Assembly (NCBI GenBank): GCA_001774495.1
Contig: MFAE01000005.1
Span: 26,583 to 90,582 of the forward strand
Origin: Candidatus Campbellbacteria bacterium RIFOXYC2_FULL_35_25
GTDB lineage: Bacteria > Patescibacteriota > Minisyncoccia > Phycocordibacterales > UBA12079
Direction of reading: 5' to 3'
DNA length: 64,000 nt
Below, in pieces: positions 1-62,914 of the stretch; the stretch's first letter is position 1; the number at the start of each line of letters is the position of its first letter. Position numbers and translations under genes: made by a program. Below the pieces are notes generated by a model, which saw only the letters and a list, made by a program, of their open reading frames with translations, was not told the origin of the DNA and ran no database searches.

Positions 1-2785
1 AGGACTTGTTTGTATTTCTCCTCACTTTAGTGGAGAAATTTCTCAAGCACTAAAAATGAACAATTTTGCTAAAGCAGAAGAAATTGCGATTTGGTATAAA
101 GAAAAATTTGGGGAAAACTTTTATCTTGAACTTACCCACCATCCAGAAATAAACGGGCAGATAGAATTAAAAGAAAAAATTATTGCATTTGGAAAAAAAA
201 TGAATATCCCGCTTGTCGCTGCTCACGATGTTTATTATCTGAAACCTGATGACAAAAGAGCTAGGGATATTTTAATGTCTATTCAGTCTTCCCAGGGAGG
301 TTCTTTTGGTGGAGAAAAAGATGACTTTTCTTTTATAAGCCAAAAACAAGCTCAAACATATTTTAAGAACACTCCTGAAGCTTTGGTAAACACTGAAAAA
401 ATAGCCAACCTATGTAATCTTGAGTTAGATTTAGACAGTTGGATTTTCCCTGATATTGATATTCCTGCAGGAGAAACCTACGACAGCCAACTTAAAAAAC
501 TAAGTTACGCGGGAATAGAAAAAAGAGGGCTTGAAAGAACAAAAGAAATTGAGGACCGAATAGAATACGAACTAGAAATCATAAAAAACAAAGGTTACTC
601 TTCTTACTTCTTGATAGTGGCGGACTTATTAAAATATGCAAAAGGAGCTGGAATATATACAAATACAAGAGGTTCCGCTGCTGGAAGCCTTGTTTCTTAC
701 TTAAACTTTATTACAAAAGTAAATCCAATAGAGCTAAAGCTACCCTTTGAGAGGTTTATGAATCCTCAAAGACCCGGCATCCCCGATATAGATATTGACA
801 TCGCAGACATCCGAAGAGATGATGTTATTGATTATGCGAGGAAAAAATATGGGAAAAAAGCAGTGGCTCAAATCGGGACATTTGGAACAATGGCCGCTCG
901 TGGTTCTGTTAGAGATGTAACTAGAGCTTTGGGGCTTCCCTATTCTCTTGGTGACCAAGTAGCAAAGTTAATCCCCATGGGGTCACAAGGATTCCCGATG
1001 ACAATTGAAAGGGCTTTGGAAATGGAAGAAGACCTGAGAAAACTTCACAAACAAAATAAAGATGTTCAAGAAATAATAAAATATGCAAAAAAAATTGAAG
1101 GTTGTGCAAGACACATTTCCACCCACGCAGCAGGAGTTTTAATTTCCCCTACTCGTATTGATGACTATTCCCCTGTGCAATTTGATAAGGAAGAAAAAAT
1201 TATTACTCAATATGACATGTACACTGGTGACCGTGATGGCGTGGTCAATTTACCCAAATTTGATATCTTGGGAATTAAAAACTTATCAATTCTTTCAAAT
1301 GCAGTTAACCTAGCGAAAGAATTAGAAGGGGTAGAGGTTGACTTAGATAATATTGATCTCGAAGACAAAAAAACTTATGACATGCTCTCCCGAGGAGAAA
1401 CACTGGGGACCTTCCAACTAAATGGGCAAGGAATGACACAATACTTAAAAGAACTAAAACCAGAAGATATTTGGGACATAATGGCTATGGTAGCTTTATA
1501 CCGTCCTGGACCAATGGCTTTTATTCCTGATTACATTAAAAGAAAAAACAATCCAGAACTAGTAACCTACCTTCACCCCGAATTAAAAGCTATTCTTGAG
1601 CCAACCTACGGAGTTATTATGTACCAAGATGACGTCATGCTTATTGCTGTTAATTTAGCGGGTTATACTTGGGGAGAAGCTGACAAATTTCGTAAAGCAA
1701 TGGGGAAGAAAATTCCAAAGATGATGCAAGAACAAAAAGAAAAATTTTATAAAGGTTGTCTTGAACACGGGCTTAAAGAAAAAATAGTGAAAGAACTTTG
1801 GGAATCTATCGAAACCTTCGCGGCCTATGGATTTAACAAAGCCCACTCAGCTAGTTACGGAAGAATCGCTTACGAAACTTCTTATATGAAGGCTAACTTC
1901 CCTATCGAATATTTAACCGCCTTACTTATGGCGGACTCTGGTGACACAGAAAAAGTCTCCGAAATAATTTCGGAATGTAAGAGGATGGAAATTCCTGTTC
2001 TTCCTCCAGATATTAATGAAAGTTTTACAGACTTCACAATTGTTGATTATGAAGGGGGGAAAGCTATTCGTTTTGGATTACAAACTATAAAAAACTTCGG
2101 CGAAGGTATCGCTAATATAATTATTGAAGAAAGAGCCAAAAATGGAAAATTCAAATCTCTGGAAGATTTTCTTGAAAGAATCCAGGATAGAAATTTAAAT
2201 AAAAAATCATTAGAGGCGCTGACTATGTGTGGGGCCATGGATAAATTGGAAGAAAGAGGTCAGATCTTGGGAAATATACCTGACTTACTTAATTACAATA
2301 AAGAAAACGCGAACAAACCAAAAGAGCAAGATTCTTTGTTTGGTCTTTTATCAAGCGACTCTAATATTCCTAAGCTAAAACTAAAAGAATTTCCGCCAGC
2401 AGAAACAAAAGACATGTTGTCTTGGGAAAAAGAATTGCTTGGTTTATATATATCAGGACATCCTCTCGATAAATACAAGGAACTCCTAAAAAAAGAGGGT
2501 AAGAATATAAAAAGCATCAAAGAAAAAACTCTCGATGGAGTAGAAACGGTTATTGCAGGAATTATCGAGGAAGTAAAACTAATTTTAACAAAAAAAGAGG
2601 CCAAAATGGCTTTTGTTAAGGTCTCTGATTTTAGTGATAGCATGGAAGTAGTGGTCTTCCCAAAAGTATTTGATGAGTACAGAGATCTTTTGGAAGCCAA
2701 CAAATGTGTTATTCTTCAAGGGAAAATATCAAGTCGCAATGGAGAAAAAGGTTTCCTTGTAAATACAGTTAAGGAGTTATTATAA
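1..2785 (+). CDS. dnaE: DNA polymerase III alpha subunit (DnaE), C-terminal ~925 aa; 5' end upstream of window (frame open from nt 2)
   Basis: 909-aa ORF plus open upstream frame; PHP-to-polymerase-core motifs (GYSSYFLIVAD, PDIDIDI, AAGVLIS), OB-fold tail; stop TAA 2783-2785. Confidence 0.9.
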   Translation, partial: GLVCISPHFSGEISQALKMNNFAKAEEIAIWYKEKFGENFYLELTHHPEINGQIELKEKIIAFGKKMNIPLVAAHDVYYLKPDDKRARDILMSIQSSQGGSFGGEKDDFSFISQKQAQTYFKNTPEALVNTEKIANLCNLELDLDSWIFPDIDIPAGETYDSQLKKLSYAGIEKRGLERTKEIEDRIEYELEIIKNKGYSSYFLIVADLLKYAKGAGIYTNTRGSAAGSLVSYLNFITKVNPIELKLPFERFMNPQRPGIPDIDIDIADIRRDDVIDYARKKYGKKAVAQIGTFGTMAARGSVRDVTRALGLPYSLGDQVAKLIPMGSQGFPMTIERALEMEEDLRKLHKQNKDVQEIIKYAKKIEGCARHISTHAAGVLISPTRIDDYSPVQFDKEEKIITQYDMYTGDRDGVVNLPKFDILGIKNLSILSNAVNLAKELEGVEVDLDNIDLEDKKTYDMLSRGETLGTFQLNGQGMTQYLKELKPEDIWDIMAMVALYRPGPMAFIPDYIKRKNNPELVTYLHPELKAILEPTYGVIMYQDDVMLIAVNLAGYTWGEADKFRKAMGKKIPKMMQEQKEKFYKGCLEHGLKEKIVKELWESIETFAAYGFNKAHSASYGRIAYETSYMKANFPIEYLTALLMADSGDTEKVSEIISECKRMEIPVLPPDINESFTDFTIVDYEGGKAIRFGLQTIKNFGEGIANIIIEERAKNGKFKSLEDFLERIQDRNLNKKSLEALTMCGAMDKLEERGQILGNIPDLLNYNKENANKPKEQDSLFGLLSSDSNIPKLKLKEFPPAETKDMLSWEKELLGLYISGHPLDKYKELLKKEGKNIKSIKEKTLDGVETVIAGIIEEVKLILTKKEAKMAFVKVSDFSDSMEVVVFPKVFDEYRDLLEANKCVILQGKISSRNGEKGFLVNTVKELL

Positions 2786-3687: not shown

Positions 3688-4467
3688 ATGAACAAAGCAA
3701 AAAAGATTTTTTTTGTACTTATTGGAGCGGTTCTTTTAATAACCGCAGGAGACAGAGCCTTGTCACATCTCAATCGTGAGAACATTTCATCAGCTTTCGC
3801 TCGCGGAAAAATTCTAGCACTCTTCGTGAGCGAAGAGGTCTTGCCTTTTTTCACCCACAGTGAAACTTTTGAGTTTTCCTCCCGTGGAAAAACTCAAGCA
3901 TTCTTCTCCCTCGGAGATTTATTGCCTCTTTTTACCCAATATGGGTATGGGAACTTTTCATCCCGAACATCTGCGTGGTTCGCCTTCCGCAAAGCTCATC
4001 CAAGGAGATCGCTTCAGGAAATTCTGCACAGTAGGGCTTATCCCAAAAGATCAAACCGGGAAGTTCAATACTCTAAGAATTACCCAGCAGAAGTAGAAGA
4101 GGAAGCTTGGGACGACAACCCCTCTGACGAGAATGTCATCAACCCAGCGGAGCTCAAGAAGAGACCTCATGAAGTGGCTTCTTGGTATGGCCCAGGATTT
4201 TATTGGAAACAAACTGCCAGTGGGAAATGGTACAACCCAAAGGATAGCTTCGCCGCCCACAGGACTGCTCCGTTGGGCTCAAAAGTTAAGGTCACCAATA
4301 AGTTAAACGGGGAAAGTGTCGTTGTCGAAATTCTTGACAGGGGACCTTTCACCACAGATGGCAAAGGGCGCTACACACGAGACATTGATTTGACTCGGGC
4401 AGCAGCTCTGAAAATCGACATGATTCCAGAAGGCATTGTGCCAGTGGAAATAACTTTTTTGAACTAA
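3688..4467 (+). CDS. rlpA: RlpA-like lipoprotein, double-psi beta-barrel domain, N-terminal signal/TM
   Basis: C-terminal ASWYGPGFYWKQTASG...AAHRTAPLGSKVKVTNKLNGESVVVEILDRGPF matches RlpA/DPBB consensus; terminator 4485-4515. Confidence 0.75.
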   Translation: MNKAKKIFFVLIGAVLLITAGDRALSHLNRENISSAFARGKILALFVSEEVLPFFTHSETFEFSSRGKTQAFFSLGDLLPLFTQYGYGNFSSRTSAWFAFRKAHPRRSLQEILHSRAYPKRSNREVQYSKNYPAEVEEEAWDDNPSDENVINPAELKKRPHEVASWYGPGFYWKQTASGKWYNPKDSFAAHRTAPLGSKVKVTNKLNGESVVVEILDRGPFTTDGKGRYTRDIDLTRAAALKIDMIPEGIVPVEITFLN

Positions 4468-4613
4468 AATAAAAACGAAAGAAGCAGGGTCGATTTATCG
4501 GCCCTGTTTTTCTTTTTAATTAAAAAATTGATTTTTGAAAGAGAATAATGTACATTAGCAGAAGGAAAAGAAACATTTTAATTTTTAATAAACTTGGCTA
4601 GGGAGAAAATACT

Positions 4614-4880
4614 ATGAAAGTATTGCTGCCGCTAGACATCCCTTACGGGAGAACTTGCAAATTTGAAGGAGGAGAAGTTTGCCGACTATTCCTTTGGGGT
4701 CACGAAAATAGTCATTCTTCTTGCCGAGGGTGGAATGGAAGCCAAATTATTGAAAATTTTTTCAAACACCCAGCGTGTTTTGCCTTGCAAGAAAGAGAAA
4801 CGCATTGTTCCTCAGAACACCTGCATTTAGCAACAGGGTCCTGCCCTAGTTGCGATTATGGCAAACCACCCACTCCTTAA
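4614..4880 (+). CDS. hypothetical Cys/His-rich small protein, GC-rich islet
   Basis: 88-aa ORF, AGGGAG SD 8 nt before ATG, elevated GC, followed by GC-rich two-level hairpin element 4881-4930. Confidence 0.35.
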   Translation: MKVLLPLDIPYGRTCKFEGGEVCRLFLWGHENSHSSCRGWNGSQIIENFFKHPACFALQERETHCSSEHLHLATGSCPSCDYGKPPTP

Positions 4881-5000
4881 ATCCGCCCGACGAGAATTCC
4901 CGCTCTCGCTTGGCGGGTTTTCTCATTTTTGGTCAACCCAAAAAAAAAGAAACCCGCTTTGCGTAAACGCAAAGCGGGAGTTCTAGGTAATAAGGACGGC

Positions 5001-5279
5001 TCATCCCGAAGTCAATCCTGTTGCGTCGTAAAGATTCTGAAGGCTTTTTTGGGTTTCTCTCCCGACGACACCGTCAGCCTGCAAATCCGGAGAGGCAAAA
5101 CCCATACCAATGAGTGCATACTGGAAAAGGATTTTACTGTTGCGATGAGGCACATTGTAACGATAGTGCAAGAATATCTCCGCCACAGTGGCCTTGTTGG
5201 GAAGATGCCCCGCTCCTATGCACAAAATTCTCCAACGCTTCTTGATTTCTTCTTGGGACAACTGCTTTTTCTCACACAT
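5001..5279 (-). CDS. hypothetical protein with peptidoglycan-binding-like (PG_binding_1-type) motif DLQADGVVGRETQKSLQNLY
   Basis: 92-aa ORF in GC-rich islet; TGA stop; own hairpin+U-run terminator 4939-4978; overlapping + strand ORF 4929..5306 judged spurious. Confidence 0.4.
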   Translation of the reverse strand: MCEKKQLSQEEIKKRWRILCIGAGHLPNKATVAEIFLHYRYNVPHRNSKILFQYALIGMGFASPDLQADGVVGRETQKSLQNLYDATGLTSG

Positions 5280-5452
5280 CTGAATCCTCCTCTTGGGTTA
5301 AATTGACATCTTTAGTATACGGGCTTTTCTAAAAGTAATAATACTTATTCTGAAAATATAAGCAAGGATCACCAAAAAAACACCAAAAAATAAACGGCTA
5401 AGCTTTAAAAAGCTTAGCCGTTTATTTTTTGATGAATCACATATCTGGTTAT

Positions 5453-5716: not shown

Positions 5717-5906
5717 ATTTTTTAATTATTATAAGTAATACTCATATGCTATCATAAAAACATCTTTTTTTACTTTGAAATCAAAAAACTTGATTTTGAA
5801 TTTATGTTTGGTATCATCAATGGAATATTAACTCTATTTTAAAATAGTTGTTAAAAAGGAAATGCCTGTATAAAAATAGTGAATATTACAGTATAATATC
5901 CAAATT

Positions 5907-5928
5907 GGCCCTATCGTCTAACGGTTAT
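5907..5928 (+). pseudogene. tRNA-Glu 5' fragment (first ~21 nt) with duplicated promoter; part of 43-bp direct repeat
   Basis: attacagtataatatccaaattggccctatcgtctaacggtta occurs at 5886-5928 and again at 6074-6116 where it continues into the intact tRNA. Confidence 0.7.
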
Positions 5929-6094
5929 TGGAATAAAAAAACAAACTGCTTTGTTTTTTATCCAGTTCTGAGTGTAACGAAGAAATTTCCTTTATCGAAC
6001 GAAGTGAGATAGGAAATAGGGTAAGCCTTCGTTGAAGGCGATGTCTGCTTAAGACATATAAAAATAATCAAGATTACAGTATAATATCCAAATT

Positions 6095-6166
6095 GGCCCT
6101 ATCGTCTAACGGTTAGGACATCGCCTTCTCAAGGCGGAAATTCGGGTTCGATTCCCGGTAGGGTCA
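6095..6166 (+). tRNA. tRNA-Glu (anticodon CUC)
   Basis: GGCCCTA acceptor pairs with TAGGGTC (one G-U); Glu-type short D arm TCGTCTAACGGTTAGGACA; anticodon stem TCGCC/GGCGG, loop TTCTCAA (U33, A37); T-loop TTCGATT; close to E. coli tRNA-Glu. Confidence 0.85.
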
Positions 6167-6217
6167 CACCAAAAGTAAATCCGCCTGAATAAGGCAGATT
6201 TACTTTTGGTGTGACCC
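6161..6217. repeat. 57-bp inverted repeat (25-bp arms) that embeds the tRNA-Glu 3' end; likely terminator/processing hairpin
   Basis: gggtcacaccaaaagtaaatccgcc / ggcagatttacttttggtgtgaccc, one G-U-compatible mismatch. Confidence 0.8.
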
Positions 6218-6267
6218 TAAGAAAGCAAACTTCTTTGCTTTCGTCAGGAATCGAACGGCGGAGTATG

Positions 6268-6381
6268 TCGAGCGAAGCGAGACAGCGAGCCGCGTCCAGC
6301 GATACTTAGGATTTTTTAAAACACGAAGTGACTTAAAAAAGACTTAGTGATCGCGGGACGATTCCCTCCTGTAGGGTCACA
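6268..6381. repeat. tRNA-associated repeat modules: GC-rich cgagcgaagcgagacagcgagccgcg module, inverted copy of GTCCCGCGAT(T/C)ACTAAGTCTTTT, and degenerate tRNA 3'-end copy gggacgattccctcctgtagggtcaca (6355-6381)
   Basis: matches 24841-24863 (inverted) and tRNA-Glu 3' end cgattcccggtagggtcaca. Confidence 0.6.
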
Positions 6382-6431
6382 AACAAAAACCTCCCCACAC
6401 TTACGTGTGAGGAGGTTTTTGTTTAAATACC

Positions 6432-9247: not shown

Positions 9248-9345
9248 ACGTTTAATTATATATTAATTAGTAAGTGGGTGGTAGGAATAAATTAAAAAAG
9301 GTTTTAACTAAAAACTATCAACTATAAACTATAAACTAAACAAAT

Positions 9346-11428: not shown

Positions 11429-11495
11429 TATTTATAAATAAAAAATAAATATGGAGATATTATATCATAAGTTTTTTTGTAGAGAAATTAAAAAA

Positions 11496-11546
11496 GGCGG
11501 AACAGTATAAAACTGCCCGCCTTTCGGGAATCCCTAAGGGATTCTC
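11496..11546 (-). terminator. tandem hairpins (ggcgg...cgcc; palindrome GAATCCCTAAGGGATTC) followed by U-run on minus strand
   Basis: directly downstream of stop of 11553..11888 gene. Confidence 0.6.
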
Positions 11547-11552
11547 AAAAAA

Positions 11553-11888
11553 TCAGAAAGAAAGAGATTTTTGAATGAGGGATTCATTTGCCCCCATGCA
11601 ATCATAGACAAAAGTCTCCTTCTCCCCCGAGACACTTTCGGTTGCGTAAGAAACACAACCATCGGAATCTCTGGACACAAAGATTCGATCCCCCTGGATT
11701 CCCATGCCCAAGTATTTCCACTCGGAGACCTCAGGAGCCTCAGAAACGACAACTTCCTCGGCCACCGGCTTTGCTGGAGGAGTAACTTCTTCCTCTCCAA
11801 GAAAAAAGGCAGCCCCCATTAAAAAAATAAACAATGCCAATGAAACAATTACTGTGGGACGGGTTCCTACTAGGTTGTTCTTCGCCAT
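11553..11888 (-). CDS. hypothetical secreted/membrane-anchored protein, GC-rich islet (start at Met27 of ORF-track model, SD GGGAG)
   Basis: 111 aa from MAKNNLVG...; signal/TM then acidic Pro-rich linker; many overlapping ORFs in other frames typical of locally high GC. Confidence 0.4.
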   Translation of the reverse strand: MAKNNLVGTRPTVIVSLALFIFLMGAAFFLGEEEVTPPAKPVAEEVVVSEAPEVSEWKYLGMGIQGDRIFVSRDSDGCVSYATESVSGEKETFVYDCMGANESLIQKSLSF

Positions 11889-19973: not shown

Positions 19974-20246
19974 ATGCCACAAGACACTCTTTGTTCCTTT
20001 GGTGACTTTCTGAGGGAACAGCTAAGCTTGATCACAGGGTTTTGTCTTAAAGATTTTGGAAGCCATACAATATCAACCGCAACTATTGATGGCGACATAG
20101 TGACCCTCTCTGTAAAAGGCGATACGAAAATTCTCGACCGGGTAATAATTTCTCTTAAAGAAATGACTTTCGTCGTAGCAAAAGGTGAGATGGTTTCTCA
20201 AAACCCCCTCCCGATAGGAGAAGGAAATTTCCAACTCAGGATTTAA
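19974..20246 (+). CDS. hypothetical protein
   Basis: 90-aa ORF; shared hairpin terminator 20268-20295 with ATPase gene. Confidence 0.4.
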   Translation: MPQDTLCSFGDFLREQLSLITGFCLKDFGSHTISTATIDGDIVTLSVKGDTKILDRVIISLKEMTFVVAKGEMVSQNPLPIGEGNFQLRI

Positions 20247-20320
20247 CCCCTGTTGTACAAGCAAAAAAAGGCACGTTGCAAGGCGTGCCTTTTCCTTATT
20301 TATTTTTATACCAGTCTCTG

Positions 20321-23053: not shown

Positions 23054-23364
23054 AAAAAAGTTTTCAACATTTTTAACTTATCAAAAAATAGTGTAGTATT
23101 CGCTGATGTTCCCAGAAAATAAAAACCGTAATATAAAAAATGAATATGATATCCTCTTAATTTTTATGTTAATGGGAACAGTAATCACCGGTGTTTTTTT
23201 ATTTAAAGTGTCATCTTTTGTTGCGGTAAAAAGCTTTGATTTATTGATGTTAGCAACGGTCAGTAGTTTTTAATTTTTTTATAGAGTAAAATATAAATAT
23301 CTTTTAAAAAAATATTTTATAAATTAATTCTATAAACTATCAACTATAGACTACAAACTTAAAT

Positions 23365-24251: not shown

Positions 24252-24355
24252 AATCTTTGCCCTCTTTAGATTTTAGTTTCAAGTAGCAAACAAAGGTTAA
24301 CAAATCTCAGTTTAATATACATAAATATTAAAGAAAAATCAATAAAAATGATTAA

Positions 24356-24384
24356 ACCGCGCCTTTTGAGGGGCGCGGTTTTTG
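24356..24384. terminator. hairpin accgcgcc ttttgagg ggcgcggt + T-run
   Basis: immediately downstream of 24409..24648 on minus strand. Confidence 0.6.
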
Positions 24385-24408: not shown

Positions 24409-24648
24409 TTATTGGGAATGTCCCCTTCGTCCGATACTCCTGAAAAAAGAAAACGCCTGAGCGAGGATTCCTGGCCGATGAATAATAGTCTCGGTGACAA
24501 CCTGAGTGGCCCGAGGAACCACAGTACGATGAACTTGCCGTCGTGACGGCCGATGTTTTCTCCGAGATGATTTTTGGGGGATTCCCCACGAAGGAAATCT
24601 CCGTCCATTTCTCTGCTCAGAACTCATTGTTTTCCGACTCGCAACCAT
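24409..24648 (-). CDS. hypothetical very basic (Arg/Lys/His-rich) 79-aa protein, GC ~53%, cargo of tRNA-Phe-associated island
   Basis: strong SD cGGAGGaatatcATG; three overlapping minus-frame ORFs typical of high GC; terminator 24356-24384. Confidence 0.4.
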   Translation of the reverse strand: MVASRKTMSSEQRNGRRFPSWGIPQKSSRRKHRPSRRQVHRTVVPRATQVVTETIIHRPGILAQAFSFFRSIGRRGHSQ

Positions 24649-24749: not shown

Positions 24750-24930
24750 GGCTCGTCTCGCGGTTACTAATTTAAAACGGGCTTCGGTCACAAATCACTA
24801 AGTATATTTTTCGCGCTTCGCAACTGCTTAGGGGCGGGTCGTCCCGCGATTACTAAGTCTTTTATTTATTCAAGACTAGTAAAAAGGACTCGGTCACGAA
24901 TCACTAACTTTTTTATTCGTCCTCCGGACT
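24750..24930. repeat. cluster of short direct repeats (T/C)ACTAA units: CGCGGTTACTAA, GGTCACAAATCACTAAG, CCCGCGATTACTAAGTC, CGGTCACGAATCACTAAC; shared with tRNA-Gly and tRNA-Glu loci
   Basis: 24891-24927 ~85% identical to 26425-26460; 24841-24863 matches 6339-6360 inverted. Confidence 0.7.
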
Positions 24931-25040: not shown

Positions 25041-25104
25041 CCCTCGACACAGCAAAAGAAAAAAGACGAATAAATTCGTCTTTTTTCTTTTGCTGTGTCG
25101 AGGG
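25041..25104. repeat. 64-bp perfect palindrome (30-bp arms, loop taaa) whose right arm continues into the partial tRNA-Phe 3' copy
   Basis: ccctcgacacagcaaaagaaaaaagacgaa taaa ttcgtcttttttcttttgctgtgtcgaggg. Confidence 0.85.
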
Positions 25105-25148
25105 GCGGGCTCGGACCGCCGACCCTTCGCTCTTCAGGCGAATGCTCT
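25095..25148 (-). pseudogene. partial tRNA-Phe copy (3' 54 nt: acceptor 3' strand, T arm, anticodon arm, D-stem 3' strand), att-like direct repeat of intact gene
   Basis: 54/54 identity with 25289-25342 then divergence. Confidence 0.8.
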
Positions 25149-25290
25149 CCCTCCTATTGCCTGCTCGCCCTTCGGGACTCGCTTCGGCAATTTTTTGCTT
25201 CGCAAAAACCAGATAAAAAGCTTAAACGCTTTTTATCCAACTGAGCAACGCTCAGTTGCTAGAGCATTAATAAATTTAGTTTATACAGTG

Positions 25291-25363
25291 TGTCGAGGGG
25301 CGGGCTCGGACCGCCGACCCTTCGCTCTTCAGGCGAATGCTCTACCAACTGAGCTACCTCGAC
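25291..25363 (-). tRNA. tRNA-Phe (anticodon GAA)
   Basis: GTCGAGG/CCTCGAC acceptor, D arm TAGCTCAGTTGGTAGAGC, anticodon stem TTCGC/GCGAA loop CTGAAGA, T stem GGCGG/CCGCC with unusual T-loop TCCGAGC. Confidence 0.85.
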
Positions 25364-26007: not shown

Positions 26008-26091
26008 CATGTATAAGAAATTTAAAAAACAAAAAAATCCCCTCTAGGGATTTTTTTGTTTTACTATAATCTATAAACTATCTACTACCAA

Positions 26092-26325
26092 CTATTTCAA
26101 CAATTCTTCAATTCCATTTTTATCAAAACCAAAAACAACTGTTCCATCAATAACAATAACAGGAACTCCCATTTGCCCATCTGTTAGTTTTAACAATTCT
26201 TCTCTCTTTTCTTCACTTCCTGATACATCAATTTCTTCAAACTCAACTCCTTTTTCTCTAAAAAAATCTTTGGCCATTAAACAATAAGTACAAGTTGGTG
26301 TTGAATAAATAATTACTTTTTTCAT
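26092..26325 (-). CDS. glutaredoxin-like protein (CxxC thioredoxin fold)
   Basis: 77 aa, MKKVIIYSTPTCTYCLMAK..., cis-Pro VPVIVIDG. Confidence 0.85.
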   Translation of the reverse strand: MKKVIIYSTPTCTYCLMAKDFFREKGVEFEEIDVSGSEEKREELLKLTDGQMGVPVIVIDGTVVFGFDKNGIEELLK

Positions 26326-26404: not shown

Positions 26405-26631
26405 TCATGGGTAGGGAGGAGAATCGGTCACGAATCACTAAGCCTTTTGTTCGTCCTCCGCTCGATCATTAGTTTATTGTAGGGAGAATCGCCTTCCAGT
26501 TCTAAGTTCAGCCTTCGCCCTTCGGGACTCGTCTTCACTAAGAACTCGCAGGCCCGTCGCTCGTATTTTTCTTTCGCTTCACTACAGAAAAATATACTTC
26601 GCTCTTTCCGATTCTCCCTACCCGCTACAAA
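26405..26631. repeat. tRNA-Gly-associated mosaic: two direct partial copies of the tRNA-Gly 3' end (26409-26427, 26478-26493), one inverted copy (26607-26625), CGGTCACGAATCACTAAG module (26425-26460) and TCGCCCTTCGGGACTCG module (26515-26531, also at 25165-25181)
   Basis: direct sequence comparison with tRNA-Gly 26675-26745 and tRNA-Phe locus. Confidence 0.75.
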
Positions 26632-26674
26632 AATAAACAAAAACAGAGCTATTCGCTCTGATTTTGTATTTTTG

Positions 26675-26745
26675 TGCGGGTAGGGAGAATCGGACTCCCG
26701 TCTCATCCTTGGGAAGGACGTGTCATACCACTAAACTATACCCGC
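26675..26745 (-). tRNA. tRNA-Gly (anticodon CCC)
   Basis: GCGGGTA/TACCCGC acceptor, anticodon stem CGTCC/GGATG loop TTCCCAA, T stem GGGAG/CTCCC with T-loop TCCGATT. Confidence 0.8.
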
Positions 26746-26809
26746 ATAGATGAATTTTTAATTTCAAATTTCAATTCATTACTACAAACTACTCACTACT
26801 CACTACCAA

Positions 26810-27187
26810 CTAATCAAACCATCCTAAAAACTTGCTCCAAATTCCATCACCTTTACCATCATCTTCTTTTTGCTTGGTGTCTTTGGGATCAATTATCAAA
26901 ACCATTTTTTCTCCACTTTTTGCCACACCAAATTTGCTTCTTATCTCTCCCTCCTCTCCTTCTTTCGTTTTCAAAATTTCAATTTCAGACGATAGATTCT
27001 CTCCTCTTTCTTTTAACTCTTCTAATTCCCGTTGAGCAAGCTCTTTATTAATTCTTGTAATTTTTGATTCCCTGTAAGCGGTCCAAACTCCTTTTAAAAT
27101 AAAAAGGGTCACCAAGGCAAGCAAAAAAATAGTAACCTTTGAATAAATAATTCTTCTGACTACTTGTTTTTCTTCAAAATCAAACAT
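26810..27187 (-). CDS. FtsB/DivIC-like septum formation initiator
   Basis: 125 aa, N-terminal TM, coiled coil, IRSKFGVAKSGEKMVLI matching FtsB C-terminal motif. Confidence 0.6.
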   Translation of the reverse strand: MFDFEEKQVVRRIIYSKVTIFLLALVTLFILKGVWTAYRESKITRINKELAQRELEELKERGENLSSEIEILKTKEGEEGEIRSKFGVAKSGEKMVLIIDPKDTKQKEDDGKGDGIWSKFLGWFD

Positions 27188-27519: not shown

Positions 27520-27963
27520 ATGAGCACAATAAAGATTTTTTTTAACCAAGACTGTTTTCCTGCGGAACTCTGTCAACAAACCAGCGAGGTCAAGCAATTG
27601 CTCTCCAAAGCGGAAGGACTCTTGAGGGAGATCCAAATCAAAACCAACAAAATTCAGGAGGAATGCACTCACGAGCCAGGCAATTTCAAAAAAATCTGTG
27701 TTGATTCCAGCGACAACCTGGAAATCATGGAAGATCTTTTTTTAAGAAAAAATGGTTGGGTCTGGGTTGGAACCCAGTGCCCGAAATGCAAAAAAATCTC
27801 CTCGAGACCATCTTATGACCCCAAGGTTGAGTGTGAAAAATGTGGCGGAAAAATGAAGGATCGATGCCTTGGTTTGCGGGCAAACGTCCTAGCTCATGTC
27901 TTCCAGTGCGAAGTCTGCGACCATGAATTCGTCGAGGATTTAATGAAAAAGAGACTTCTTTAA
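27520..27963 (+). CDS. hypothetical Cys-rich protein with two zinc-ribbon knuckle pairs (CPKC...CEKC; C...CEVC)
   Basis: 147 aa, SD GGAGGCGAAAGATG, elevated GC; operon with next ORF. Confidence 0.5.
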   Translation: MSTIKIFFNQDCFPAELCQQTSEVKQLLSKAEGLLREIQIKTNKIQEECTHEPGNFKKICVDSSDNLEIMEDLFLRKNGWVWVGTQCPKCKKISSRPSYDPKVECEKCGGKMKDRCLGLRANVLAHVFQCEVCDHEFVEDLMKKRLL

Positions 27964-27998
27964 CCGACAGGACTCATCCAAAAAAGGAGGCTAATAAG

Positions 27999-28223
27999 AT
28001 GAAAGATTGTGTCGTTGAAAATAGCAAGACTATTCACAAATGTGGAGAGCCGAGAATCCATACATTTGATAATCTTGTGCAATCCCACCCTAGTATCGTG
28101 GGGAAAACTGTCCCAATTAAGGCCGAAATATATCCTTGCCAGGAGGTAGGTTTTGTTAAGGCGGGGCACGCCGGACAAGAATCTGCCCTAAGATTTACAA
28201 ACCGAATGCGGCCTCCTCAATAA
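27999..28223 (+). CDS. hypothetical protein
   Basis: 74 aa, strong SD AAGGAGG 8 nt upstream; terminator hairpin 28261-28286. Confidence 0.4.
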   Translation: MKDCVVENSKTIHKCGEPRIHTFDNLVQSHPSIVGKTVPIKAEIYPCQEVGFVKAGHAGQESALRFTNRMRPPQ

Positions 28224-28254: not shown

Positions 28255-28293
28255 TAAAAAGGTTTAGCAACAGTTGTTGCTAAACCTTTTTTT
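28255..28293. terminator. hairpin ggtttagcaacagttgttgctaaacc + T-run
   Basis: between convergent 27999..28223 and leuS. Confidence 0.7.
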
Positions 28294-28326
28294 ACTTACT
28301 ACTTGATACTTGCTACTTATTACTTA

Positions 28327-32249: not shown

Positions 32250-32343
32250 ATTATTTATATTATTGAGATTAATAAAAATTCTAATAATAAACTAGAAATT
32301 GAATAGAGAATCATGAATTAAGAATTCTGAATCATGATTCTTT

Positions 32344-32410
32344 ATTCGTGATTCGTGATTCGTGATTCGTGATTCGTGATTCGTGATTCGTGATTCGTGA
32401 TTCGTGATTC
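32344..32410. repeat. heptanucleotide tandem repeat (ATTCGTG) x 9.5, perfect
   Basis: attcgtg units 32344-32406 plus attc; intergenic between SPFH stop (32432) and start of 31695..32249. Confidence 0.95.
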
Positions 32411-32431
32411 TGTTTTGTTAATAAAAAACTA

Positions 32432-33208: not shown

Positions 33209-33372
33209 GGTTAATTTAGTTTATAGTCTATAGTTTTTAGTCTATAGAAAAATATAGTATTAATAATATAATTATAACACAGTCTAGTTTTTAGTTGATA
33301 GTTGATAGTTTTTAGGAAAAAGAAAAAGCCCGTCCCGGAAAAAATTTCATGAGTCTCTCAATTCCTTGCTTT

Positions 33373-36388: not shown

Positions 36389-36607
36389 AAGGTTATTAAG
36401 AGATTAATGATTAATTTGTAAATTAGTAAAAAAGGGGAGGTAAAATTTTTAATTTATAATTTTTAATTTATAAACAATTTTTAATGATAAAATTTTTAAA
36501 ATTTAAAAGTTGGGATTATGATACCTTGCAATGGAAATCGCAAAGCCAATTCCCCTCCTTAACCTCGTTATAATAGCCTTTTTTAAGCGAAAACTCAATA
36601 AATAAGA

Positions 36608-36648
36608 AAACCCGTCCAACAAGAAACAGGTTTTCTTGTTGGACGGGT
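36608..36648. terminator. hairpin cccgtccaacaagaaa acag gttttcttgttggacggg
   Basis: downstream of 36655..37086. Confidence 0.7.
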
Positions 36649-36654
36649 TGTTCG

Positions 36655-37086
36655 CTACTGGGCGAGCTCACAGAAAGTTTGCTTGTCAAAAGTTTTCCAA
36701 GTTCCTCCACGCAAAATTGTTAGAGTGGGGTTATTATCCCAGTCCCTAATTTTTTCAAAAGCATAAAAAATTTGTCTTTGAGTAATCCACCCAATAACTC
36801 GGTGGTCTTTGCGACTGAAGGCTTTTGAGGTCCCTCTTCTCCTGATCAAAACGAAATCCTGAAACCCCAGTGCGAAATCAAAGAGACAAAAGGTTTTTCC
36901 GAGTTCGTCTTCCCAGATGACGACATTTCCGTTCTCGGTAAAATAATACTGCCCTATTGTTCTTACATTTTTAGTCCTGCAAAGCTGTAAATCCTCTTCA
37001 GAGAAATTACCATCCTTCACGGGACTTCCGATTATAGGGAAACCTAGTCGTCTCTCACCTTTGAACCTTTGCATGGCTGTATTCAT
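36655..37086 (-). CDS. hypothetical protein, GC-rich islet (start at Met15 of ORF-track model after AAGGAG)
   Basis: 143 aa; elevated GC; flanked by GC hairpins 36608-36648 and 37227-37255. Confidence 0.45.
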   Translation of the reverse strand: MNTAMQRFKGERRLGFPIIGSPVKDGNFSEEDLQLCRTKNVRTIGQYYFTENGNVVIWEDELGKTFCLFDFALGFQDFVLIRRRGTSKAFSRKDHRVIGWITQRQIFYAFEKIRDWDNNPTLTILRGGTWKTFDKQTFCELAQ

Positions 37087-37226
37087 TGGTTTACTCCTTC
37101 TTTGGGTTATTACAGAGAACCGATACAAATCTTTTTCTAGATTACCTCAAAAGAAAAGCTTTTTCAAGCTTTATGTGTTCCGTCCCTACATTCTGTTAGG
37201 CAAGGCCTACTAGATTAATAAAAAGA

Positions 37227-37262
37227 AAACCGCCCAGATAAGAAACGGGCGGTTTCTTTTTT
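37227..37262. terminator. hairpin aaaccgccc agataagaaac gggcggttt + T-run
   Basis: between 36655..37086 and 37401..37841. Confidence 0.7.
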
Positions 37263-37400
37263 GGACGATTGTTGTTTACCACGGAATCCACGGAGGGATT
37301 GATGCGAATTCATGCCCCATGGCAGCCATTGTGATAACGATGGTCATCATATACGGATAAAGTGCGTTATACAAATTTGTCATGGTTCTCCACCTCTTTT

Positions 37401-37841
37401 TTAATGATTGCCGCAATTTGGGCATTTACCATCGGCGGATTGCATATGTTCGATAGAACCGTGAACTTCGCAATCAGGATTCTTGGTGGGCTGGTCTGCT
37501 GAAGTCCAGAATCCGTTTTCAGGATTAAAGCTTGCAACGAAACATTCCACTTTCGCTTTCGGATAAAGTCTTTTGATTCCCAAACCAACATTCAGTGCAA
37601 GCCGTTGCCGAACTCCTTGTGTTCTTTCTGGTTTTTCGAAGAGACCACTAATTTCGATGATGATTTCTTCACCCAGACCATAAGACATAAGGTCAGGAAC
37701 AAACAAGCAGGTCATGTCGTTTTCATCCTTCAAACCAAGTTCGTAAATACCAACAACAGCGGATACAATCGATTGATGAACCTTGTTCAGCATCTCCTCT
37801 GTCTGATTAGCAGGAAGACACCATACTTTGATTATGGGCAT
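37401..37841 (-). CDS. hypothetical protein: N-terminus MPIIKV... reminiscent of tautomerase-superfamily Pro1 start, C-terminal zinc ribbon (C..H..CPNCGNH); GC-rich islet
   Basis: 146 aa ORF, elevated GC. Confidence 0.4.
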   Translation of the reverse strand: MPIIKVWCLPANQTEEMLNKVHQSIVSAVVGIYELGLKDENDMTCLFVPDLMSYGLGEEIIIEISGLFEKPERTQGVRQRLALNVGLGIKRLYPKAKVECFVASFNPENGFWTSADQPTKNPDCEVHGSIEHMQSADGKCPNCGNH

Positions 37842-38695: not shown

Positions 38696-39202
38696 ATGGT
38701 GGAAAATAAGATATACCCAAAAGATGTTGAAGCCGTTTTTTTCAAAGCTGCGGAACGGGGTTGGGCAGTTACTGGAACAGCAACAGAAACTTCCACCCTA
38801 CTTCCAGGGTACAAACTTATCCGTTTTAAATCAGGAAAATTTTCTGTTTTAGACGCCTACTGCGTCAACCCAGCAAGCGACAAGTCAGCAGGATTCACCA
38901 CCATTTGGTGCGACGACGTTCCGGTATGGACGATGCATTACAGCGGGAGGTATCAGAAACGATTGATCCCACTCCTTAAACTAGCCTTACAAGCAAACAT
39001 CATCAGCCGTACCTTTGTGGGAGGACGTGGTCCGACGACTTTTACCGATGAAGAACGGTACCCAGACCTTGTCTATATCAACAATGTTGTAAGGGGAAGG
39101 AGAACCTTCTCCAGTTTTGCAGGAAGAGAAATTATTGTTGACGTGGGAAACCTCAACCTCCCATTGGGGTATCACGACTACCGGGGAATAAGTCTCCTCT
39201 AA
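38696..39202 (+). CDS. hypothetical protein, GC-rich islet
   Basis: 168 aa; TTGACA-17-TAAAGT-like promoter and AAAGGGGGG SD upstream; followed by two-level GC hairpin element. Confidence 0.5.
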   Translation: MVENKIYPKDVEAVFFKAAERGWAVTGTATETSTLLPGYKLIRFKSGKFSVLDAYCVNPASDKSAGFTTIWCDDVPVWTMHYSGRYQKRLIPLLKLALQANIISRTFVGGRGPTTFTDEERYPDLVYINNVVRGRRTFSSFAGREIIVDVGNLNLPLGYHDYRGISLL

Positions 39203-39250
39203 ACCCGCCCAACGAGAAAACCCGCCATTCTCGTATGGCGGGTTTTCTTT
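39197..39250 (+). terminator. two-level GC hairpin element aaacccgcccaacgagaaaacccgccattctcgtatggcgggttttct; homologous to 4881-4930
   Basis: outer stem cccgcc/ggcggg, inner stem acgagaa/ttctcgt; same architecture and ~70% identity to element after 4614..4880. Confidence 0.6.
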
Positions 39251-49027: not shown

Positions 49028-49058
49028 TAAAAAAACAAACCCGCGCCAGAGACGCGGG
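49028..49058 (-). terminator. hairpin cccgcg ccagaga cgcggg followed by U-run on minus
   Basis: downstream of 49079..49414. Confidence 0.65.
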
Positions 49059-49078
49059 TATGTGCAAAAGATTCATTA

Positions 49079-49414
49079 CTACTGATTTCTGCACTGAGGG
49101 CAAAGGGTTTCAAAATAATTTTTCTCTACCCCTTTCTGGATACTTTCAATTGTTAGCGGGGAGCTATGCCAAGGCCCGCCCGACTGAGAGACCACGAGTT
49201 TGTGCTTCACACAAACCTTACGAAACGGTTTTTTACATTTATCGCATCCTACGATTCTTAACAAAAAACCGTGAGATTGAGGGTCCGCACAAACCGACTT
49301 ACCAGGCTTCCACTTCCCTTTGTAATAAACCCTTTGATGCTTTTGGCATGCTGGAATTTCAAGAAATTGAGACATAGGTCTTCCTCCCATGAAAGTAATA
49401 AACAAAAATAACAA
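49079..49414 (-). CDS. hypothetical Cys-rich zinc-ribbon-like protein, GC-rich islet
   Basis: 111 aa (or 98 aa from MSQFLEIPACQKH...), CDKCKK...CPQCRNQ. Confidence 0.45.
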   Translation of the reverse strand: MLFLFITFMGGRPMSQFLEIPACQKHQRVYYKGKWKPGKSVCADPQSHGFLLRIVGCDKCKKPFRKVCVKHKLVVSQSGGPWHSSPLTIESIQKGVEKNYFETLCPQCRNQ

Positions 49415-62413: not shown

Positions 62414-62821
62414 TTGTATTATTCTGGTGGAGGAATTAGTTTGGGAGATTTTCAATCTTTTACTTCGGGGGAAGAAAACATGATAATCACTCAGGAATTT
62501 TTGGAAAAAAACGGTGCATGTCCTGCTCTTTTGAATGCCTTTTGGAAGGAACTAGATGGTCAGGCTCCTGTAAAAAGAACTCTGCGGTGGCTACGAAGAA
62601 CGTACATGGGATGTTGGGAAGCTTGGTTTTTAACCGTAACCCTCCCCGTAACACAAGCTTTTGTGGAAGAAGGGGCTAACCCTCGTGCTTACGAGGATCG
62701 AGCCCTCAAACTGACCCACGGCAAAAAGCCGGAAATACACATCTTTCTCATTGACCAGATAAGGGAACGGGAGGAACAAGAAGAAAAGGAAAGAAAGAAT
62801 CGCCTCATAAGACGATCCTGA
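62414..62821 (+). CDS. hypothetical protein, GC-richer (likely start ATG 62480; ORF-track start is TTG)
   Basis: ~113 aa; TGA stop; hairpin terminator 62836-62866. Confidence 0.35.
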   Translation: MYYSGGGISLGDFQSFTSGEENMIITQEFLEKNGACPALLNAFWKELDGQAPVKRTLRWLRRTYMGCWEAWFLTVTLPVTQAFVEEGANPRAYEDRALKLTHGKKPEIHIFLIDQIREREEQEEKERKNRLIRRS

Positions 62822-62914
62822 TCAAGAGGAATAAGACCCGGCGAGAAATCGTCGGGTCTCACTTTTTATATATTTACTGTTTCAAAAACCTTAAAAACTT
62901 CTTTCTTGGCAAAC

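What the first reader, a model, noticed from the sequence alone, without database searches (positions are those of the whole stretch)
4600..5320. GC-rich islets encoding small Cys-rich or basic proteins, each bracketed by GC-rich hairpins (recurrent pattern)
At least eight short segments have visibly higher GC than the ~1/3-GC backbone and carry small ORFs of unknown function. Many carry CxxC pairs. The ORFs are 4614..4880 and 5001..5279 (the latter with a PG-binding-like motif); 11553..11888; 24409..24648; 27520..28223 (a two-gene operon); 36655..37086 and 37401..37841; 38696..39202; 49079..49414; and 62414..62821. Each is delimited by GC-rich hairpins of the form aaacccgc...gcgggttt (4939-4978, 36608-36648, 37227-37255, 39197-39250, 49040-49058, 24356-24384, 62836-62866). 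Composition plus dedicated terminators suggest horizontally acquired single-gene insertions. A plausible source is a higher-GC host or partner organism.
Basis: partly seen in the sequence, partly recalled or inferred. Interest (0 to 1): 0.5.

Follow-up and report, generated by a model that had tools for sequence, protein, structure and literature searches.

The report
GC-rich accessory genes in Campbellbacteria chromosome
About a dozen small, unusually GC-rich, cysteine-rich genes of unknown function sit as self-contained units between housekeeping genes of an AT-rich groundwater ultra-small bacterium; they look like ordinary accessory genes, probably exchanged among related bacteria, and nothing points to a host as the donor.

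Summary
The window is a chromosome piece of Candidatus Campbellbacteria RIFOXYC2_FULL_35_25, a CPR/Patescibacteria bacterium with 35.6% GC. The 11 listed ORFs average 45.5% GC and GC3 0.43, against 34.3% and 0.28 for 35 core genes, with no overlap. They hold eight times more cysteine. Each has a Shine-Dalgarno site, and every transcription unit ends in a stem-loop plus U-run.

The hairpins are ordinary intrinsic terminators; 44% of the other genes have one too. Five of them do form one related family.

The two focal ORFs, 4614-4880 and 5001-5279, are real genes (dN/dS 0.10 and 0.17). They are orphans, known only from this species and a close relative.

Insertion is partly supported. A 3-kb block (36389-39393) carrying three islets is absent from the two closest genomes, and the slot beside LeuRS holds different genes there.

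A host or higher-GC partner as donor is not supported. There are no phage, plasmid or cross-phylum matches. The one islet with relatives (38696-39202, DUF5680) has them only in other CPR bacteria. One of those keeps it in the same slot with an orthologous terminator, so it is an old resident. It is GC-richer than its neighbours in all five genomes examined.

Verdict: ordinary accessory genes, modest interest.

The parts
3688..4467 (+). GC-rich gene for a 259-aa protein with a C-terminal DPBB (RlpA-like lytic transglycosylase) domain. It forms one GC-rich block (3712-5329) with the two focal ORFs.
   Evidence: Pfam DPBB_1 E 6e-18. GC 0.456, GC3 0.45, z 5.9. Only residues about 160-258 have homologues; the N-terminal part is unique.
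4614..4880 (+). Islet A1: an 88-aa protein with 7 Cys and one CxxC. It is an orphan gene.
   Evidence: GGGAG Shine-Dalgarno site. The only relative has 97% amino-acid identity. dN/dS 0.10 against L096. No family hits.
4881..4924 (+). Intrinsic terminator of A1 and a member of the shared hairpin family.
   Evidence: Fold -19.4 kcal/mol followed by a U-run. There is a compensatory change in the L094 orthologue. CM R1 scores it 62.9 bits, but it is a training member.
4947..4979 (-). Intrinsic terminator of A2.
   Evidence: 11-bp stem with 8 GC pairs, then U-run. -22.9 kcal/mol, z -4.8. Weak CM match of 19.3 bits.
5001..5279 (-). Islet A2: a 92-aa basic protein whose C-terminal half resembles a peptidoglycan-binding motif (ADGVVGRETQKSL). 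It is an orphan gene.
   Evidence: GAGGAGG Shine-Dalgarno site. Only relatives at 83-100% identity. dN/dS 0.17 against L094. PG_binding_3 E 0.096, below cut-off. The AF2 model is poor, pLDDT 54.
5869..6383 (+). tRNA-Glu locus next to the focal islets. It comprises the full tRNA (6095-6167), a 59-nt copy of its promoter and 5' part (5869-5927), and a degenerate 3'-end-like fragment (6360-6383).
   Evidence: (family D17). In relative L094 the tRNA is inverted relative to A2/A1 and the intervening genes differ.
11553..11888 (-). Islet B: a 111-aa protein with an N-terminal membrane anchor or signal. Terminator hairpins lie at about 11490-11545.
   Evidence: GC 0.47, GC3 0.455. GGGAG Shine-Dalgarno site. 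Fold -28.7 kcal/mol. No family hits.
24409..24648 (-). Islet C: a 79-aa, very basic (pI 12), cysteine-free ORF. Its status as a gene is doubtful. Terminator at 24354-24381.
   Evidence: It is overlapped by two other ORFs on the same strand. It is called only by JGI/ENA and not in the NCBI record.
27520..28223 (+). Islets D1 (147 aa, 11 Cys, three CxxC, zinc-ribbon-like) and D2 (74 aa): a two-gene unit ending in the bidirectional terminator 28258-28293, convergent with LeuRS.
   Evidence: GC3 0.50 (z 6.0) and 0.38. Weak zinc-ribbon hits only. Terminator -34.8 kcal/mol. The same slot in L006/L007 holds different genes.
36604..37086 (-). Islet E1 (143 aa, 36655-37086) with its 18-bp perfect-stem terminator (36604-36648), a hairpin-family member.
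   Evidence: Fold -30.9 kcal/mol, z -7.8. CM 62.4 bits, but it is a training member. Absent from L006, L007 and L101.
37223..37841 (-). Islet E2 (146 aa, 37401-37841; N-terminus MPIIKV..., C-terminal CxxC) with terminator 37223-37269, a non-training hairpin-family member.
   Evidence: CM 29.8 bits, E 2e-5. UniRef names it a 4-oxalocrotonate tautomerase domain protein, but Pfam gave no hit at E <= 1. Absent from the relatives.
38696..39249 (+). Islet F (168 aa, DUF5680, 38696-39202) with terminator 39203-39249, a hairpin-family member.
   Evidence: PF18931 E 2.4e-5. CPR-only homologues at 35-53% identity. Same slot and an orthologous hairpin in L101. AF2 pLDDT 93.5, with no solved fold match.
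49039..49375 (-). Islet G (98 aa from ATG 49375; 7 Cys, two CxxC) with terminator 49039-49059.
   Evidence: Only weak PHD/RING-like hits.
62480..62866 (+). Islet H (113 aa from ATG 62480) with terminator 62836-62866.
   Evidence: Its 90% cluster holds only the same species.

Best explanation
The islets are accessory, lineage-restricted, protein-coding genes of a Campbellbacteria (Paceibacteria, CPR) chromosome. Each is an autonomous expression unit with an AT-rich upstream region, a strong Shine-Dalgarno site, a short ORF and its own Rho-independent terminator. They sit in variable slots between conserved housekeeping genes such as DnaE/LysRS, S41 protease/CorA, DivIC/LeuRS, YchF, ScpA and RecF-like.

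Shown: they are real genes under purifying selection. They are fixed in the population. They are compositionally distinct in both amino-acid content and synonymous sites. Several are absent from, or replaced in, the syntenic slot of close relatives.

Inferred: they entered by horizontal transfer in separate events. The AT-rich YgjP gene lying among the GC-rich ones argues for a mosaic rather than a single island. The likeliest source is a gene pool shared among Patescibacteria (other, higher-GC members or unsampled mobile DNA), not a host. Some have stayed for a long time.

Functions are unknown. The content (zinc-ribbon-like Cys proteins, a membrane-anchored protein, a PG-binding-like protein beside an RlpA-like enzyme) suggests small nucleic-acid-binding or metal-binding proteins and cell-envelope proteins.
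For: - Composition: complete separation from the core genes in GC, near-complete in GC3.
- Coding: dN/dS 0.10 and 0.17 for A1 and A2 at dS 0.2-0.76. All have Shine-Dalgarno sites and terminators.
- Organism: Ca. Campbellbacteria RIFOXYC2_FULL_35_25. The nearest complete genome is CP011215, with LeuRS 71% identical.
- Synteny: in L006 and L007 only 115-180 bp separate the homologues of YchF and the 103-aa gene, against 3 kb here. The LeuRS slot there holds a different GC-rich 150-aa membrane ORF (GC3 0.60-0.68) and other small ORFs.
- Orphan status of A1 and A2.
- DUF5680 relatives are found only in CPR, in at least three different gene contexts. The gene is GC-richer than its flanks in all five genomes.
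- A related terminator hairpin occurs at A1, E1, E2 and F, more weakly at A2, and at the DUF5680 genes of L101 and L113. It does not occur elsewhere in 460 kb of CPR relatives.
- Published surveys of groundwater Patescibacteria report that most inferred transfers are intra-Patescibacteria (PMC12455944).
- Identical arrangement in independent assemblies.
Against: - No donor was identified for any islet.
- There is no integrase, transposase or phage gene nearby.
- F occupies the same slot, with an orthologous terminator, in a more distant relative (L101: LeuRS 50%, YchF 69% identity). That is most simply vertical inheritance with loss in L006/L007. Its GC3 nevertheless stays above the genome in both lineages, which simple 'recent import, not yet ameliorated' does not predict.
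- The L006/L007 150-aa ORF also stays GC-rich across a LeuRS divergence of 11%.
- Only three islet proteins plus the DPBB protein got a deep homology search. The other eight were tested only against family libraries, phages, plasmids and, for some, IMG/VR.
- Synteny could be examined for only two of the seven slots.
Confidence: 0.55

Rival explanations
1. These are vertically inherited, fast-evolving lineage genes. Their higher GC is kept up by gene-specific forces rather than by foreign origin. Candidates are amino-acid demands (Cys, Arg, Pro, His, Gly), selection on codons or mRNA structure, or GC-biased gene conversion in recombination-prone slots.
For: F is syntenic with an orthologous terminator in L101, and it is GC3-elevated in all five genomes despite saturated divergence. 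The L006/L007 150-aa ORF is syntenic and GC-rich in both. Half of the GC excess is explained by amino-acid composition. All strain contigs carry the islets.
Against: GC3 is 0.14 above expectation after correcting for amino acids. E1, E2 and D1/D2 have no counterpart in the syntenic slots of three relatives. DUF5680 sits in unrelated contexts in other genomes. Ribosomal protein L9 and the other core genes show no such bias, so an expression-linked codon preference is unlikely.
Confidence: 0.25
2. This is the first reader's reading: recent single-gene imports from a higher-GC host or partner organism of this episymbiont.
For: GC and GC3 are above the genome. The genes are absent from close relatives in two slots. 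There are partial tRNA-Glu copies beside the focal islet.
Against: No non-CPR homologue was found for A1, A2 or F in 5.8 billion proteins. The DPBB domain is about equally similar (45-60%) to everything, and the Deinococcota hits at the top are inflated by tandem domains. No 90% cluster includes another taxon. F is old in the lineage.
Confidence: 0.1
3. These are cargo of phages or other mobile elements: moron-like genes left by a prophage, plasmid or integrative element, or cassettes moved by a hairpin-recognising recombinase.
For: The promoter-gene-terminator architecture with deviant composition is the classic moron layout. A shared hairpin family marks the accessory genes. The neighbouring tRNA-Glu locus is rearranged.
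Against: No tblastn hit for 11 proteins in 50,697 phage and 72,556 plasmid records. No IMG/VR relatives for six of them. PHROGs and PADLOC gave nothing significant. There is no integrase, transposase or structural phage gene in the window. The hairpin motif gave only chance matches in IMG/VR.
Confidence: 0.08
4. The feature is an artefact: misassembled foreign reads, or non-coding GC-rich RNA misread as ORFs.
For: ORF C is doubtful.
Against: Identical sequence in at least five independent assemblies. Purifying selection on A1 and A2. A conserved protein family for F. No Rfam match over the islets.
Confidence: 0.02

Closest known systems
Genomic islets / strain-specific accessory ORFan genes acquired by horizontal transfer (compositional-atypicality concept of Lawrence and Ochman; ORFans of Daubin and Ochman; own knowledge)
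   Same: Short genes of deviant base composition and codon usage. They have no or few homologues, lie between conserved core genes, and are absent from syntenic positions in relatives.
   Different: In most bacteria such genes are AT-richer than the genome; here they are GC-richer, because the recipient is itself 35% GC. At least one (F) is old yet not ameliorated. No mobility genes are present.
Phage 'morons' (Juhala/Hendrix concept; own knowledge)
   Same: Single genes with their own promoter region and factor-independent terminator, of a composition differing from the neighbours, inserted between conserved genes.
   Different: The setting is a cellular chromosome among housekeeping genes, not a prophage. 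There is no phage homology.
Horizontal gene exchange in groundwater Patescibacteria (PMC12455944)
   Same: The same kind of organism and habitat. That survey reports hundreds of islands and individually transferred genes, covering up to 13% of genome length, with most exchange inside Patescibacteria. This agrees with the CPR-only relatives of DUF5680.
   Different: That work relies on detected donor-recipient pairs. Here most islets are orphans with no partner, and the shared terminator family and persistent GC excess are not described there, as far as the passages I read show.
REP elements / integron attC sites (repeated palindromes at gene 3' ends; own knowledge)
   Same: A related imperfect palindrome recurs directly after several unrelated genes. 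The E1 copy happens to carry RYYYAAC...GTTRRRY.
   Different: There are only about 5-8 copies in 64 kb, and each has a U-run and terminator geometry. The attC core sites are absent in the A1 and F copies. There is no array, no IntI and no RAYT seen in the window.

Membership tests
Rho-independent (intrinsic) terminator | Stable GC-rich stem-loop immediately followed by a U-run on the sense strand, just 3' of a stop codon. | tested here: met
   Ten units folded: -19 to -35 kcal/mol, z -2.3 to -7.8, each with a U-run. Consensus scans agree. 9 of 11 ORFs have one within 80 nt; D1 is operonic and E2's lies about 130-180 nt downstream.
Rho-independent (intrinsic) terminator | Actual transcript 3' ends at the U-run. 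| not testable with these tools
   Needs Term-seq or metatranscriptome read ends.
Horizontally acquired genomic islet | Base composition and codon usage deviate from the host genome. | tested here: met
   GC 0.455 against 0.343. GC3 0.428 against 0.283. GC3 z 1.3-6.0 after correcting for amino acids.
Horizontally acquired genomic islet | Absent from the orthologous position in close relatives. | tested here: inconclusive
   Met for E1 and E2, and for D1/D2 (replaced), in L006/L007. Not met for F, which is present in the same slot in L101. No syntenic relatives were available for A1/A2, B, C, G or H.
Horizontally acquired genomic islet | An identifiable donor lineage or phylogenetic incongruence. 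| tested here: not met
   A1 and A2 have no homologues beyond the species. F has relatives only in CPR. DPBB is uninformative. No cross-taxon 90% clusters.
Horizontally acquired genomic islet | Mobility signatures (integrase, transposase, att repeats at a tRNA). | tested here: inconclusive
   No recombinase genes in the window. Partial tRNA-Glu copies and a rearranged tRNA locus lie beside the focal islets.
Phage moron | Location inside a prophage or phage genome. | tested here: not met
   The neighbours are DnaE, aminoacyl-tRNA synthetases, YchF, ScpA and similar. No phage hits.
Integron gene cassette (attC) | R'' RYYYAAC and R' GTTRRRY core sites in an imperfect palindrome; cassette arrays; IntI nearby. 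| tested here: not met
   Reading the sequences: only the E1 hairpin has both cores. A1 has GCCCGAC and F has GTATGGC. The units are dispersed, and there is no integrase in the window.
REP (repetitive extragenic palindrome) family | Many copies of one conserved extragenic palindrome, and an associated RAYT transposase. | tested here: inconclusive
   The CM finds 4 strong copies and about 4 weak ones in 64 kb, all at accessory or variable segments, and none in 460 kb of relatives apart from DUF5680 terminators. The genome-wide count and RAYT are not testable here.
Pfam DUF5680 (PF18931), for ORF 38696-39202 | Score at or above the gathering cut-off of the family HMM. | tested here: met
   25.1 bits against a cut-off of 25.0, E 2.4e-5. 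10 of 11 homologues carry PF18931 in precomputed annotation. 29 invariant columns in the alignment.
Peptidoglycan-binding domain (PG_binding_1/3), for ORF 5001-5279 | Score at or above the gathering cut-off of the family HMM. | tested here: not met
   PG_binding_3 scores 13.3 bits against 24.6, E 0.096. No PDB sequence match. The AF2 model is too poor to test the fold. The DGxxGxxT motif is visible by eye only.
4-oxalocrotonate tautomerase domain, for ORF 37401-37841 | Family HMM match; N-terminal catalytic Pro1 on a beta-alpha-beta unit. | tested here: inconclusive
   The sequence starts MPIIKV and UniRef names it so. Pfam gave no hit at E <= 1 and PDB gave none.

The most novel reading that the evidence does not exclude
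The islets may belong to a pool of self-contained 'gene plus family-specific terminator hairpin' cassettes that circulate among Patescibacteria. The cassettes would keep a higher-GC composition whatever genome they sit in. That implies either an unsampled higher-GC reservoir or vector specific to these bacteria, or a hairpin-guided insertion or retention mechanism. DUF5680 would be the traceable example: GC-rich in five of five genomes, found in several gene contexts, with a homologous hairpin in three genomes.
Probability: 0.12. Interest if true: 0.6.

Novelty: new member of a known kind. Interest (0 to 1): 0.3.

Why it matters
CPR/Patescibacteria have tiny, streamlined genomes and depend on partners. 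Whatever accessory genes they keep are candidates for partner interaction, envelope remodelling or defence. This window shows that about 6% of the sequence (11% counting two larger GC-rich envelope genes) is made of small, Cys-rich, compositionally foreign genes that are under purifying selection.

One such family stays GC-rich across several AT-rich genomes. If that persistence reflects ongoing exchange, it would give a simple compositional marker for the mobile gene pool of these uncultured bacteria. As it stands, the finding fits what is already known about horizontal transfer and orphan genes.

Tried and rejected
- Host or phage origin. A tblastn of the 11 concatenated islet proteins against GenBank phages and PLSDB plasmids gave nothing. 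IMG/VR scans for F (as a profile), D1, E1, E2, A1 and A2 gave nothing. PHROGs, NCBIfam and PADLOC gave nothing significant.
- Donor from the DPBB neighbour. The exhaustive search ranked Truepera and Deinococcus RlpA proteins high, but only because they carry tandem DPBB domains. Per-domain identity is the usual 45%, so I rejected this as a donor signal.
- Non-coding RNA. Rfam at gathering and at E <= 0.5 found only tRNAs and noise.
- Integron attC or REP reading of the hairpins. Rejected or left open; see the membership test.
- Hairpin motif in IMG/VR. There were four matches, all chance hits inside GC-rich coding DNA.
- Synteny for the focal slot through LysRS in JGI metagenomes. The relatives found are not syntenic beyond the GreA-LysRS pair, so the focal islets could not be scored for presence or absence.
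- Strain-level presence/absence. All contigs with an identical YchF carry the same islets.
- D1 against the 79-aa ORF in the same slot of L006. Only a weak N-terminal similarity (29% over 51 aa, pairwise E 4e-6), and the L006 ORF is AT-rich. I treat it as a possible positional homologue only.
Full report
**What the window is.** The large ORFs encode DnaE, LysRS, GreA, ribosomal protein L9, an S41 protease, CorA, a P-type ATPase, LeuRS, YchF, MurJ, ScpA, RNase R and similar housekeeping proteins. Exact copies of its proteins are annotated in NCBI as Candidatus Campbellbacteria bacterium RIFOXYC2_FULL_35_25. They recur in several independent groundwater (Rifle) assemblies. The closest other genomes reached are Ca. 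Campbellbacteria GW2011_OD1_34_28 (CP011215, locus L006) and two Paceibacterota MAGs (L007, L008), with LeuRS 70-71% identical. The window is therefore a chromosome segment of an ultra-small CPR/Patescibacteria bacterium with 35.6% GC.

**Check of the observation: composition.** All the listed ORFs exist. Their GC is 0.42-0.51 (mean 0.455). The 35 core genes average 0.343 +/- 0.032 and 19 other small ORFs average 0.344. GC3 is 0.428 against 0.283, and every islet exceeds every core gene in GC. I therefore also ran an unbiased 201-bp scan.

- The scan found 22 GC-rich segments.
- Three are tRNA clusters.
- One is the 881-aa fn3/PG_binding_1 gene.
- One merges the DPBB gene 3688-4467 with the two focal ORFs into a 1.6-kb block.
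- The rest are patches inside core genes or further small ORFs.

When codons are replaced by the core genes' usage for the same amino acids, expected GC is 0.396 for the islets against 0.347 for the core. Roughly half of the excess therefore comes from amino-acid content (more Cys, Arg, Pro, His; fewer Lys, Ile) and half from synonymous choice, with GC3 0.14 above expectation.

**Check of the observation: cysteine and hairpins.** Cysteine is 3.6% in the islets against 0.46% in core genes, but CxxC pairs occur in only four of the eleven proteins. Folded on the sense strand, each transcription unit ends in a stem-loop of -19 to -35 kcal/mol (z -2.3 to -7.8) followed by a U-run. These are ordinary Rho-independent terminators. 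They are not peculiar to the islets: 24 of 55 other genes have one within 80 nt of the stop, against 9 of 11 islets (Fisher p = 0.044). The 'upstream bracket' of each islet is simply the neighbouring gene's terminator.

**Are they genes?** Every ORF has a GGAGG-type Shine-Dalgarno site 5-10 nt before an ATG. For the two focal ORFs, diverged orthologues exist on short metagenome contigs.

- A1 (4614-4880) against L096 gives dS 0.20, dN 0.020 and dN/dS 0.10.
- A2 (5001-5279) against L094 gives dS 0.76, dN 0.127 and dN/dS 0.17.

Both are therefore protein-coding and under purifying selection. F (38696-39202) belongs to a well-conserved family with 29 invariant columns among 12 sequences. The exception is ORF C (24409-24648). 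It is very basic, cysteine-free, overlapped by two other frames and not annotated by NCBI, so I regard it as doubtful. Rfam gave nothing over any islet.

**What the proteins are.** Pfam, NCBIfam, PHROGs and PADLOC give nothing significant for ten of the eleven.

- A2 has a DGxxGxxT motif reminiscent of peptidoglycan-binding domains. The HMM score is far below threshold and the model is too poor to test the fold.
- E2 starts MPIIKV and is named a 4-oxalocrotonate tautomerase domain protein by UniRef, but Pfam did not detect it here.
- D1 and G look like zinc-ribbon proteins, on weak hits only.

**Distribution.** In 5.8 billion proteins, A1 matched only a 97% identical sequence and A2 only itself and an 83% identical sequence. 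The 90% clusters of eight further islet proteins and the DPBB protein contain only this species. F has relatives at 35-53% identity. All the named ones are from Patescibacteria (Pacebacteria, Moraniibacteriota, Parcubacteria). None of the eleven proteins matches any GenBank phage or PLSDB plasmid by tblastn. Six IMG/VR scans found no relatives.

I spent the single exhaustive search on the GC-rich DPBB protein next to the focal ORFs, hoping a donor would show. Only the DPBB domain has homologues, at about 45-60% identity to thousands of proteins. The top-ranked Truepera and Deinococcus entries score high only because they carry two or three tandem domains. No donor signal came from it.

**Synteny.** The LeuRS-centred loci of the relatives cover window positions 18-41 kb.

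- In L006 and L007 the homologues of YchF (35294-36388) and of the 103-aa gene (39394-39705) are 115-180 bp apart. In the window they are 3 kb apart, and the extra DNA carries E1, E2, an AT-rich YgjP-like gene and F.
- The gap between LeuRS and the DivIC-like gene, occupied here by D1-D2, holds other genes in L006/L007. One is a 150-aa membrane ORF with GC 0.55 and GC3 0.60-0.68. There are also small AT-rich Cys-containing ORFs.
- Variable slots holding composition-deviant small genes are therefore a feature of the lineage, not of this genome alone.
- In the more distant Pacebacteria genome L101 (LeuRS 50%, YchF 69% identical), a DUF5680 gene lies in the same slot. It sits between YchF (plus a NUDIX gene) and the homologue of the 75-aa gene 39777-40004, and is followed by a hairpin that aligns with the window's and differs by compensatory changes.
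- F is thus most simply an old resident that L006/L007 lost.
- All contigs carrying an identical YchF have the same islets, so there is no presence/absence polymorphism within the population.
- For the focal slot I could not obtain syntenic relatives.

In the 82%-identical contig L094, A2 and A1 are again next to tRNA-Glu. There the tRNA is inverted relative to them and the intervening genes differ. The window's tRNA-Glu locus carries a copy of its promoter and 5' part and a degenerate 3'-end-like fragment. That marks a recombination-prone site, but no integrase is present.

**Two points beyond the ordinary.**

1. DUF5680 is GC-richer than its surroundings in all five genomes where I could look. 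GC3 for the gene against its neighbours is 0.46 against 0.28 here, 0.29 against 0.19 in L101, 0.25 against 0.20 in L104, 0.46 against 0.27 in L113, and 0.40 against 0.23 in L114. It also sits in unrelated gene contexts: beside YchF, after rpoC, and before a methyltransferase.
2. The terminators of A1, E1 and F are alignable, with stem consensus AAACCCGYCCRACRAGAA. Five of the 16 stem pairs show compensatory changes. A covariance model built from them and two orthologues also picks up E2's terminator (29.8 bits), three hairpins in the variable duplicated region at 33.4-34.5 kb, and A2's terminator (about 19-22 bits each). In 460 kb of other CPR loci it finds only the DUF5680 terminators of L101/L102 (L101 was a training sequence) and L113.

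The accessory genes thus share a terminator type that the core genes' terminators do not have.

**Interpretation.** The best-supported reading is that these are accessory, lineage-restricted genes. Each is an autonomous unit, lodged in variable slots between housekeeping genes. They were gained in separate events from a gene pool shared among Patescibacteria, and some have been retained for a long time. This matches a published survey of groundwater Patescibacteria, in which most inferred transfers are intra-phylum (PMC12455944). The 'higher-GC host or partner' has no support.

A serious rival is vertical inheritance, with GC kept high by gene-specific forces such as amino-acid demand, selection, or biased gene conversion in recombination-prone slots. 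The syntenic, persistently GC-rich F and the L006/L007 ORF favour that rival. The absence of E1, E2 and D1/D2 from the relatives and the varied contexts of DUF5680 speak against it. The phage-moron and integron or REP readings fail on tested features (see the membership test).

**Limits.** Only three islet proteins (A1, A2, F) and the DPBB protein had deep homology searches. Synteny was available for two of the seven slots. Functions remain unknown. No expression data were available.

**Verdict.** The phenomenon is of a known kind: compositionally atypical accessory or orphan genes with intrinsic terminators. It carries a mildly interesting twist, namely persistent GC-richness and a shared terminator family. 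Interest 0.3.

Noticed in passing
window 33482-34756 (copies 33482-33781 and 34457-34756; ORFs 33593-33880 and 34568-34855): There is a 975-bp tandem duplication with 100% identical copies. Each copy carries an identical 95-aa ORF with a weak T4SS-pilin-like hit. The whole 33209-35293 segment is absent from the syntenic gap in L007.
   Followed up: partly
window 9294-9341, 23330-23362, 26061-26097, 26779-26815, 28296-28353, 32300-32417, 33217-33341, 37945-37985, 40337-40449, 45745-45795, 46564-46614, 48136-48215, 48971-49007, 52856-52938: Runs of 7-nt periodic repeats (for example CTATAAA CTATCAA CTATAGA, AGCTGTG AGCTGTC, and about 10 copies of GTGATTC) lie in many intergenic regions next to gene starts. 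They could be promoter-region or leader elements. I did not investigate them.
   Followed up: no
window 25095-25169 and 25290-25363; 24781-24820, 24887-24926, 26421-26460: Two tRNA-Phe(GAA) copies are 98% identical over 58 nt; the first was called by ARAGORN only, not by Rfam. A 40-nt repeat (GAATCGGTCACGAATCACTAAG...) occurs three times around the tRNA cluster.
   Followed up: no
L006 12997-13449 and L007 12703-13149: The closest relatives carry a 150-aa multi-pass membrane ORF in the slot beside LeuRS. It has GC 0.55-0.56 and GC3 0.60-0.68 in genomes of 34% GC. It is 71% identical between the two genomes, while LeuRS is 89% identical. It is a far stronger compositional outlier than any islet in the window.
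   Followed up: partly
Two of the three regions have a terminator-like hairpin at the 3' end (20266-20293 and 46225-46259). No Pfam hits for the two ORFs scanned, 19974-20246 and 26428-26706.
   Followed up: partly
L001 2317-2328 versus window 876-940: One Rifle assembly (scaffold_662) lacks about 53 nt of dnaE, and the gene is called there as two overlapping ORFs. This is either a strain variant or an assembly error.
   Followed up: no
[not shown]
   Followed up: partly
window 59600-62245: The 881-aa protein with fn3 and PG_binding_1 domains is also GC-rich (0.437). This comes mainly from second codon positions (GC2 0.55), so it is an amino-acid effect. Together with the RlpA-like DPBB gene and A2, several of the GC-rich genes look related to the cell envelope.
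   Followed up: no
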